DNA from: Stylophora pistillata | Taxonomy: Eukaryota | DNA length: 64,000 nt | NCBI RefSeq assembly: GCF_002571385.2 | Contig: NW_019217786.1 | Span: forward strand, 1,782,284 to 1,846,283 | Direction: 5' to 3' | Part shown: positions 62,081-63,415 of the stretch, piece after piece | How the letters are laid out: every line of letters starts with the position of its first letter | How positions within the stretch are numbered: position 1 is the first letter of the stretch | Position numbers and translations under genes: made by a program | The notes under the pieces: generated by a model | What the model was told of the DNA's origin: nothing | The model's database searches: none | Seen by the model: only the letters and a program-made list of their open reading frames with translations

Positions 62081-63415
62081 ATGGCTGTTCTCTCAGCACG
62101 ACAAATGTTTCCAAACCTGGAAAGCGATAGAATGACGATATCCAAACAAGGACAAGTGGCAATCATAAAAAACGGTTGTATCGAGCTATACGGAAGAGAT
62201 GTCACATGTGGTATTCCTTGGGTAAGCAGAAAGATTTCTGCGGGTCTCTCGAGGCCTTACGATCTGTGCTTTGCTCCAAATGACGCCCTAGTGGTCTCAG
62301 ACGTTGGCGATAACACGATCAAAATTTTTGATTTGACGCGAAATTTACCACCAGTAAATCAGATTATTATCGGCCATGACTTCTTTGGAAGGTTTATTGT
62401 TCTAGATCGAAGCAATGTACCCCATGTTAACATGAGAGCGTTGACAACTTTTCGAATCCCTCAAAACGTAGCCATTAGTCCAGGACCTTTATCGCAACTA
62501 TTCGTATCGAGTAGCACGGATATAATTCTGATGAACATGGACTGGAGTAAGCTAAGCCTGGTCAGCTACCTTCTTATTTGTTCTCCCTTAGATTGGCGAT
62601 TGCTGCAGTTCAATAAAAGATTAGTTTGTGATAATGTTAGTTCAGTGCAAGATCACAAAAACAGTCACAAGGTTGGTGGGTTCAATCCTATGGCAATAAC
62701 CGAAGCTCAGTTCTGTGGTATGTTTTACCACGTAACCGAAACGGACCGCACAGGATTTTCGTGTCTTGAACAGTCGAAATGCAACGTTGGAATACGAGGG
62801 GACAGGAGAAAATTTTCCGAAACGGTTGTGATTTACGTCCGAATAACGGAGAAGAACGGTCGACTTTTATTCCAAGCCAGATATGGCAACTGCTACGAAG
62901 GAGTTTACGAAAGTACGACCCATGCAGAATATTTTATGTTGGTGGATGATGATTTCAGACAAGCGGTCAACATGCTTCAAGATCAGAATGGAGGAGACAT
63001 TAACTTGTTCATGAACAAACAGCCTTGCTGTAGATCTACAGGACATGGTAAGAAAACGGACCTCAAAGTAAAAGACTGTGCTCAAGATCTGATCAAATTT
63101 TACAAGGTTTATTGCTTACCTCATGGAATAAAACTGGTAATTAATTTGTGTCAGTTGTACAAGATTGGCATGTCTCACAGCCCTGGGGAAAGATCTTTAG
63201 CTGCTGACATAGAGAATGCTCGATTAGGAGTGAAAATGATGTTATTCTATGGTATCGAGCTGATGGCAATGAGAAAAGACACCTGGAAATTACTAGCTGA
63301 GGCAGCGAAAGTTAATTTGCCGGCATATCAAGACAGCGATCGTCAGAAATTGGACCAATACATCAACCTTGTACTTTCAGAAATAAATAGAGCACCTATT
63401 CAATTTTACTACTAA
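62081..63415 (+). CDS. NHL-repeat plus AID/APOBEC-like (APOBEC4-resembling) zinc deaminase fusion, 444 aa
   Basis: Uninterrupted ORF; first ATG at 62081 (the track start 62051 is GTG). NHL motif LSRPYDLCFAPNDALVVSDVGDNTIKIFD (62246-62332); deaminase motifs ETVVIYVRI, YGNC, THAEY (HAE at 62921-62929), INLFMNKQPCC (PC 63023-63028), DCAQDL (C 63077), LVINLCQLY, GVKMMLFYGIELMAM..W. Confidence 0.85.
   Translation: MAVLSARQMFPNLESDRMTISKQGQVAIIKNGCIELYGRDVTCGIPWVSRKISAGLSRPYDLCFAPNDALVVSDVGDNTIKIFDLTRNLPPVNQIIIGHDFFGRFIVLDRSNVPHVNMRALTTFRIPQNVAISPGPLSQLFVSSSTDIILMNMDWSKLSLVSYLLICSPLDWRLLQFNKRLVCDNVSSVQDHKNSHKVGGFNPMAITEAQFCGMFYHVTETDRTGFSCLEQSKCNVGIRGDRRKFSETVVIYVRITEKNGRLLFQARYGNCYEGVYESTTHAEYFMLVDDDFRQAVNMLQDQNGGDINLFMNKQPCCRSTGHGKKTDLKVKDCAQDLIKFYKVYCLPHGIKLVINLCQLYKIGMSHSPGERSLAADIENARLGVKMMLFYGIELMAMRKDTWKLLAEAAKVNLPAYQDSDRQKLDQYINLVLSEINRAPIQFYY

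What the first reader, a model, noticed from the sequence alone, without database searches (positions are those of the whole stretch)
63023..63079. Unusual zinc-binding motif: PC-x16-C with a basic inserted loop
Seen: QPCCRSTGHGKKTDLKVKDCAQDL. The two probable Zn-ligand cysteines are 16 residues apart, with an extra adjacent Cys, a His and four Lys in between. Known: the canonical AID/APOBEC motif is PC-x2-4-C, and APOBEC4-type enzymes have a modestly longer spacer. Inference: a positively charged loop beside the active site that may set substrate (RNA vs DNA) or sequence preference, or help form a second metal site with the Cys of YGNC.
Basis: partly seen in the sequence, partly recalled or inferred. 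Interest (0 to 1): 0.7.

Follow-up and report, generated by a model that had tools for sequence, protein, structure and literature searches.

The report
Coral APOBEC4-like deaminase with long loop
The widely spaced cysteines belong to a coral gene for a predicted C-to-U editing enzyme, and the long spacing is the normal, already published hallmark of its family; the less ordinary features are a predicted half-propeller domain at the protein's front and an optional intron that cuts through it.

Summary
The motif is real: P315-C316-x16-C333 in a 444-aa open frame (62081-63415). It is not unusual for its family. [quoted passage not shown] For that clade an insert between the two zinc cysteines (n = 2-25) and a second zinc site using the NC cysteine are published (PMC5889660, PMC3239186). 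The median spacer is 16 among 106 representatives. The extra Cys (4 of 118 close relatives) and the loop His (deleted in 24 of 116) are not conserved, so a loop-based second metal site is unlikely. Positive charge is typical of the coral subfamily only, and I found no sign of positive selection. A role for the loop in substrate contact is plausible but untested. Outside the finding, the coral subfamily carries an N-terminal three-blade NHL-type propeller fragment that I did not find in print. In this copy a 370-nt GT-AG intron inside that fragment is spliced out in 5 of 7 RNA-like runs, removing the fusion frame.

The parts
62081..63415 (+). Open frame of 444 aa: NHL-type propeller fragment fused to an APOBEC4-like (cnidaria-algae clade) deaminase
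   Evidence: Pfam PF18774 E 5.4e-29; one unspliced RNA-like contig spans 61910-63536
62117..62605 (+). Predicted three-blade beta-propeller fragment of NHL type (aa 13-175)
   Evidence: all-beta in model; matches 6r5z three-blade fragment, Z 12.6, rmsd 2.3, 113 aligned; Pfam NHL 19.6 bits, under the cut-off of 20; Atlas NHL clusters 0.91-0.92
62206..62221 (+). Out-of-frame ATG and first five codons of the 279-aa propeller-less frame that exists only after splicing
   Evidence: database protein P0011 (279 aa) is identical at 274 of 279 positions
62222..62591 (+). Optional 370-nt GT-AG intron inside the coding frame (frameshifting); the donor is absent from the neighbouring paralog
   Evidence: joint in 5 of 7 RNA-like runs, absent in the 1 DNA-like run; donor and acceptor read
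62627..62782 (+). Loop-1/helix-1 accessory metal-binding residues C183, H192, H196, C212, H217, C228, C234 (predicted ligands of two extra Zn sites)
   Evidence: each kept in at least 118 of 119 aligned close relatives or in all that have a residue; C212, H217, C228, C234 in 70-72 of 76 diverse rows; sites described in Table S1 of PMC5889660
62888..62893 (+). Loop-3 NC motif (N270, C271; the YGNC cysteine), published ligand of the clade's second Zn site
   Evidence: C271 in 119 of 119 close and 67 of 76 diverse rows
62921..62929 (+). Catalytic HAE motif (H281, E283)
   Evidence: 76 of 76 diverse rows
63023..63028 (+). PC motif: P315 and first catalytic Zn cysteine C316
   Evidence: 119 of 119; 76 of 76
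63029..63076 (+). Loop-5 insert of 16 residues: conserved stem (S319, T320, K329, K331), variable tip; C317 is a rare substitution
   Evidence: beta-bridge positions S319 and K331 in the domain model; tip 324-328 pLDDT under 50 in the full-length model
63077..63079 (+). Second catalytic Zn cysteine C333, first residue of helix 3
63158..63160 (+). Loop-7 aromatic Y360, the position predicted to restrict the pocket to cytosine
   Evidence: follows strand 4 in the model; Tyr in 46 of 76 diverse rows; role from PMC5889660; equivalence inferred
63341..63355 (+). RxxxD motif in the last helix (R421, D425), clade hallmark
   Evidence: R in 73 and D in 71 of 76 rows

Best explanation
The motif is the predicted catalytic zinc site of an expressed coral deaminase of the APOBEC4/cnidaria-algae clade, and the 16 residues between its cysteines are that clade's normal loop-5 insert, likely a flexible cap that helps grip single-stranded nucleic acid. 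Shown: the residues, their conservation, the clade hallmarks and transcription (from runs whose RNA status is inferred). Predicted by models: AID/APOBEC fold, with C333 starting helix 3 and a stem closed between S319 and K331, which would bring C316 and C333 together on the zinc with H281, E283 acting as proton shuttle. Inferred: cytosine substrate (N270, Y360); two accessory zinc sites built from eight conserved Cys/His outside loop 5, including C271; basic stem residues (R318, K329, K331) contacting the phosphate backbone while the tip varies; a defence-type mutator role by analogy with other invertebrate AID/APOBEC-like enzymes. C317 is incidental.
For: Pfam APOBEC4_like E 5.4e-29. Domain model pLDDT 88.6, pTM 0.89; best matches AID 5w0r Z 17.6, rmsd 2.4, 171 aligned and APOBEC3G 6p3x Z 17.2. 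Family profile aligns its distal Cys with the helix-3 Cys of APOBEC3G, with a 15-column gap in the APOBEC row, though only at E 0.015. Spacer 10-19 in 116 of 120 close relatives called and 10-32, median 16, in 106 of 150 representatives called. Published: inserts between the two cysteines in the cnidaria-algae clade, n = 2-25, a Nematostella member with x14. Ser at +3 in 100 of 106. Net charge at least +2 in 110 of 116 coral-subfamily loops, and mostly kept in the x10 loops. Loop 5 contacts substrate in APOBEC3A. [quoted passage not shown]
Against: No activity, substrate or metal count was measured, and no model coordinates were returned, so Cys-Cys and loop-substrate distances are not known. 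The close relative APOBEC4 is reported as inactive or substrate-unknown in mutator assays. Across the wider clade the loop is only weakly basic (mean +1.2; zero or negative in 30 of 106), so charge-based gripping cannot be general. Position +1 is His or Asn in 66 of 66 distant rows and mostly Phe/Tyr in the coral subfamily; Cys here may alter function. One clade of 24 proteins has lost the tip and kept the catalytic residues. RNA status of the runs is a tool guess.
Confidence: 0.75

Rival explanations
1. The loop insert is a tolerated surface loop, or an oligomerisation or inhibitor-contact surface, with no role in substrate choice.
For: Length runs from 10 to 32 and sequence is free beyond the stem. 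The tip has low model confidence and was deleted once in a clade of 24 proteins. PMC5889660 names oligomerisation and stability as alternative roles of loop-length variation.
Against: Within the x16 subgroup the loop is among the best-kept regions (mean pairwise identity 0.82 against 0.72 for the domain, 43 proteins). The central 13 residues are identical between the two intact tandem copies, which are 69% identical overall. A canonical short spacer was not seen: only 1 row has a Cys within three residues after PC.
Confidence: 0.3
2. One reading: C317 and H322 in the loop join C271 (YGNC) in a second metal site.
For: C271 is invariant in 119 close relatives and H322 is kept in 84 of 93 that have the position. 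ADAR1 uses a His of the equivalent loop in an auxiliary Zn site, and nematode members have two extra conserved Cys in loop 5.
Against: C317 is Cys in 4 of 118 close relatives and in 0 of 66 distant rows; the paralog has Tyr, one base away. H322 is missing from 24 short-loop proteins and is His in 14 of 66 distant rows. Eight other conserved Cys/His account for two four-ligand sites, and the published assignment pairs the NC cysteine with helix-1/loop-1 residues.
Confidence: 0.07
3. The protein binds nucleic acid but does not deaminate polynucleotides efficiently, like vertebrate APOBEC4; the loop and extra zinc inserts occlude or gate the pocket.
For: APOBEC2 and APOBEC4 lack mutator activity in the E. 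coli assay or act on unknown substrates. I found no activity test of a cnidaria-algae clade member.
Against: H281, E283, C316, C333 are invariant in 76 of 76 diverse rows. Sea urchin and brachiopod enzymes of other clades are active on DNA.
Confidence: 0.2
4. The adjacent C317, not C333, is the second zinc ligand.
For: Only its adjacency in this one sequence.
Against: C317 is not conserved and C333 is invariant and placed at the start of helix 3.
Confidence: 0.02

Closest known systems
[quoted passage not shown] 2018, PMC5889660; Iyer et al. 2011, PMC3239186; Pfam PF18774), e.g. Nematostella XP_001622116
   Same: HxE plus PC-xn-C with long insert (x14 in the Nematostella row, x16 here), helix-1 C and H, loop-1 cysteines, loop-3 NC motif, RxxxD, mostly single-exon frames in tandem arrays with pseudogenes.
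   Different: The coral subfamily has an N-terminal three-blade NHL-type fragment (79 of 120 close relatives; 3 of 147 further representatives), one Cys plus an extra His (H192) where most clade members have two N-terminal cysteines, an aromatic rather than His/Asn residue after PC, and a more basic loop.
Vertebrate APOBEC4
   Same: Same clade, NC motif and second Zn site.
   Different: Spacer CxxxxxC in PMC3239186; second-site ligands arranged differently; slowly evolving single gene.
AID and APOBEC3 (5w0r, 6p3x, 5w3v)
   Same: Fold, Z 16.6-17.6 over 171-181 residues; loop-3 Asn and loop-7 aromatic.
   Different: Short PC-x2-4-C, no accessory zinc inserts of this type, 14-18% identity.
ADAR/Tad1 insert in the CxxC motif
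   Same: An insert between the zinc cysteines that caps the pocket and, in ADAR2, contacts RNA: a functional precedent.
   Different: Much larger three-stranded insert, adenosine in double-stranded RNA, distant fold match (Z about 4.3).
Lophotrochozoan-echinoderm-cnidarian AID/APOBEC-like clade (other copies in this genome)
   Same: Also matched by PF18774.
   Different: All 7 distinct domains read from those 7 loci have YSPC-x2-C and lack the helix-1 C/H motif.

Membership tests
AID/APOBEC-like deaminases | HxE and PC-xn-C zinc motifs | tested here: met
   H281-A-E283, P315-C316-x16-C333; invariant in 76 of 76 rows
AID/APOBEC-like deaminases | Five-strand deaminase fold with helix 4 before strand 5 and two further helices | tested here: met
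   predicted model only; Z 17.6 to AID, rmsd 2.4, 171 aligned
AID/APOBEC-like deaminases | Loop-3 Asn and loop-7 aromatic residue | tested here: met
   N270 (73 of 76) and Y360 (46 of 76 Tyr); equivalence by position in the model
AID/APOBEC-like deaminases | C-to-U deamination of single-stranded nucleic acid | not testable with these tools
   needs an assay
APOBEC4/cnidaria-algae clade | Conserved C and H in loop 1/helix 1 | tested here: met
   C212 and H217; 71 and 70 of 76 rows; feature from Table S1
APOBEC4/cnidaria-algae clade | NC motif at the start of loop 3 | tested here: met
   N270-C271
APOBEC4/cnidaria-algae clade | RxxxD motif in helix 6 | tested here: met
   R421, D425
APOBEC4/cnidaria-algae clade | Variable CxnC, n = 2 to 25 | tested here: met
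   n = 16
APOBEC4/cnidaria-algae clade | Additional predicted site from an N-terminal CxxC...H stretch | tested here: inconclusive
   only one Cys (C183) here; H192, invariant in the coral subfamily (118 of 118), may replace the second; inference
APOBEC4/cnidaria-algae clade | Accessory sites actually bind zinc | not testable with these tools
   predicted in print; no metal in the models
Lophotrochozoan-echinoderm-cnidarian clade | NYS before the CxnC motif and WP before strand 1 | tested here: not met
   sequence has MNKQPC and no WP; contrast with the loci
NHL beta-propeller | NHL-type blades | tested here: inconclusive
   one repeat at 19.6 bits, cut-off 20; 39 of 64 members match at E 0.1; Atlas 0.92 but only 154 of 256 shared features; fold matches many propeller types
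NHL beta-propeller | Closed six-blade ring within one chain (recalled, not from a call) | tested here: not met
   about 165 residues, aligning to 113 of 119 residues of a three-blade fragment; no relative among proteins of 778-2220 aa apart from one unrelated WD40 hit, weak evidence

The most novel reading that the evidence does not exclude
Stony corals have joined an APOBEC4-like mutator to half of an NHL RNA-binding propeller that closes only by pairing with a second half, so that assembly or a partner aims the enzyme at foreign RNA or DNA; in this copy a newly born frameshifting intron acts as a splicing switch between the propeller-bearing enzyme and a propeller-less or untranslated form, and loop-5 length types (x10, x16, x17-19) give paralogs different targets.
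Probability: 0.15. Interest if true: 0.7.

Novelty: new variant of a known kind. Interest (0 to 1): 0.33.

Why it matters
The flagged motif adds little: it is a published feature of a clade named in 2011 and 2018. The gene still matters modestly. I found no activity test of any member of this clade, and vertebrate APOBEC4 has no known substrate, so an expressed, intact coral member with natural loop variants is a handy way to ask what the clade edits and what the loop does. The half-propeller fusion and the optional intron hint at targeting and control of a mutator enzyme in coral immunity, and such enzymes are also candidates for base-editing tools.

Tried and rejected
Sequence search of solved structures with the single protein found no deaminase; the profile reached APOBEC chains only at E 0.015 or worse. 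Complex prediction of two copies of the propeller fragment gave no verdict (score 0.08, mark 0.32, alignment not used), which is no evidence either way. No holder of the stretch is on record as RNA; RNA status was inferred from spliced neighbour joints and uncovered intergenic stretches. Search for longer fused forms found one unrelated WD40 kinase. Viral structure search gave only weak dCMP-deaminase-type matches. Positive selection: pairwise dN/dS between the two intact copies is 0.37 in the loop (2 synonymous, 3 nonsynonymous differences in 16 codons, too few to be firm) and 0.30 overall; no codon-model test was possible. Allele-dependent splicing: both runs without the joint carry 62224 A>G at the donor, but both come from one study and one has a contig starting at 62591, so I do not claim it. 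The careful tree did not finish; the quick tree was used. P0219 is probably mis-called (28; likely 7), and that pattern could not see spacers under 4. Three look-ups of earlier findings returned nothing. PMC8195603 held nothing relevant.

Full report
Observation. The finding lies in a 444-aa open frame at 62081-63415 on the + strand. The quoted peptide is present. C316 (63026) and C333 (63077) are 16 residues apart, with C317, H322, four Lys and one Arg between them. The neighbouring paralog is labelled by NCBI as a Stylophora pistillata protein, and named cluster members come from Pocillopora and Porites, so this is a stony-coral gene family.

Family. Pfam APOBEC4_like matches at E 5.4e-29. 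That model also matches a different clade in this genome, whose domains have YSPC-x2-C, so I tested the clade hallmarks directly. Table S1 of PMC5889660 lists a C and an H in helix 1/loop 1, an NC motif in loop 3, RxxxD in helix 6 and a CxnC of n = 2 to 25. All are present: C212, H217, N270-C271, R421/D425, n = 16. The domain model (pLDDT 88.6, pTM 0.89) matches AID at Z 17.6 and APOBEC3G at Z 17.2, well above the first non-APOBEC row at 7.7.

Is C333 the zinc ligand? Among 119 close relatives C316 is kept in 119 and C333 in 117 of the 117 that have a residue there. I aligned the query with 10 close relatives and 66 of the 147 new distant representatives, picked for near full-domain length. 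Only H281, E283, P315, C316 and C333 are invariant. Both models start helix 3 at C333, where the second cysteine of the motif belongs. The profile puts this Cys on the helix-3 Cys of APOBEC3G, at weak significance. Distances could not be measured, as no coordinates were returned.

Is the spacer unusual? Not in this clade. It is 10 (24), 15 (1), 16 (43), 17 (41), 18 (3) or 19 (4) in the 116 of 120 close proteins my pattern could call. In the 50%-identity representatives it runs from 10 to 32, median 16, in 106 of 150; 31 of the 44 uncalled are under 200 aa. The profile was built from long-loop members, which biases this list. [quoted passage not shown] Second metal site. A second zinc site that uses the NC cysteine is published, but its partners are the helix-1 C and H and a loop-1 C; a third site is predicted at the N-terminus. 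Here eight conserved residues outside the catalytic site (C183, H192, H196, C212, H217, C228, C234, C271) are enough for two four-ligand sites (assignment inferred). The loop candidates fail. C317 is Cys in 4 of 118 close relatives (Phe 78, Tyr 29) and in none of 66 distant rows, and differs from the paralog's Tyr codon by one base. H322 is common in the coral subfamily (84 of 93) but absent from the 24 short-loop proteins and His in 14 of 66 distant rows. ADAR1 does use a His of its equivalent loop for an auxiliary zinc, so the idea had precedent.

What the loop likely does. It has a conserved stem (S319 in 117 of 117, T320 116, K329 110, K331 113), with bridge positions at S319 and K331 in the model, and a low-confidence tip. 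Net charge is at least +2 in 110 of 116 coral-subfamily loops but averages +1.2 across the clade, and is zero or negative in 30 of 106. On a quick tree built without the tip (117 of 120 proteins), the x16 and x10 types each form one side of a well-supported branch, with x10 inside the x17-19 group. The tip was thus lost once without loss of catalytic residues. Within the x16 group the loop is better kept than the domain (0.82 against 0.72), while across groups it is about average (0.60 against 0.64). That fits subgroup-specific constraint, not ongoing positive selection. Loop 5 touches substrate in APOBEC3A and the ADAR2 loop 451-480 touches RNA, so a backbone-gripping cap is my best guess, at about even odds for this step.

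Beyond the finding: the N-terminal domain. Residues 13-175 are all-beta and align with propeller blades, including 113 of 119 residues of a three-blade fragment (Z 12.6). Sequence features point weakly to NHL. A profile of this part matches 79 of the 120 close proteins over at least 100 columns and 3 of 147 further representatives. NCBI-annotated Pocillopora and Porites members are 456-459 aa, and one RNA-like contig covers 61910-63536 unspliced, so no missing upstream blades are indicated. Three blades cannot close a ring alone (my knowledge), so pairing with a copy or partner is inferred, not shown. I did not find this fusion in print: main text of PMC5889660, the readable part of its supplement, and searches. 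The supplement was cut before Fig. S14, the clade alignment, which may list such proteins.

Beyond the finding: an optional intron. A 370-nt GT-AG stretch (62222-62591) is skipped in 5 of 7 RNA-like runs from five studies and is continuous in the one DNA-like run laid; I laid 8 of the 24 listed runs. Splicing shifts the frame: the ATG at 62081 then gives 57 aa, while an ATG at 62206 gives 279 aa holding the whole deaminase, matching P0011 at 274 of 279 positions. Four ATGs lie upstream of 62206, so this form may be poorly translated. The donor and that ATG are absent from the neighbouring paralog, and the WVS tripeptide that spells the donor occurs in 1 of 120 aligned proteins, so the intron looks recent; it may be noise or a switch.

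Locus. Three copies lie in tandem: this one, an intact copy 5 kb downstream (76% identical over the queried part, x16) and a broken copy (stops, QAD for HAE, x17), plus a fragment beside an assembly gap. Tandem arrays with pseudogenes are described for the clade.

Papers seen. PMC5889660: parts 2-5 of 8 of the text, term passages, supplement part 1 (Table S1) and supplement search rows. PMC3239186, PMC12907492, PMC8201067, PMC5956068, PMC8195603: term passages only. Other papers: search listings only.

Verdict. The motif itself is already known; the gene as a whole is a variant of a known kind because of the propeller fragment. Interest 0.33.

Noticed in passing
window 62117-62605: Predicted three-blade NHL-type propeller fragment fused in front of the deaminase; present in 79 of 120 close relatives, with named members in Stylophora, Pocillopora and Porites.
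   Followed up: partly
window 62222-62591: Frameshifting 370-nt GT-AG intron inside the coding frame, skipped in 5 of 7 RNA-like runs; yields a 57-aa peptide from the first ATG or a 279-aa deaminase from ATG 62206.
   Followed up: partly
G000:C3:1849513-1850904 and about 1852400-1853850 (L004): Two tandem paralogs: one intact, one broken by stops with QAD in place of HAE; database gene models P0004 and P0008 join pieces of neighbouring copies and look like annotation chimeras.
   Followed up: partly
L004 3087-3778: A fragment of a further copy's N-terminus runs into a 188-base N gap, with an unrelated-looking open frame on the opposite strand beside it.
   Followed up: no
proteins P0088-P0120: A clade of about 260-306-aa proteins without the propeller part includes all 24 short-loop (x10) members; whether the propeller is lost or only uncalled was not checked.
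   Followed up: partly
G000 contigs C280, C2855, C2856, C420, C62 (L012-L018): At least nine further AID/APOBEC-like matches of another clade; those read have YSPC-x2-C, and one open frame holds two deaminase domains.
   Followed up: partly
window 63490-63800, 58400-59340, 59800-61200: High-copy repeats flank the gene, including an inverted-repeat element just downstream; very high contig depth in the laid runs.
   Followed up: no
window 50636-55081 (- strand): A spliced, expressed neighbour gene on the opposite strand, seen as CT..AC joints in 4 of 4 runs.
   Followed up: no
window 63029-63031: The residue after PC is His or Asn in 66 of 66 distant rows but mostly Phe/Tyr in the coral subfamily, a possible specificity position.
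   Followed up: partly
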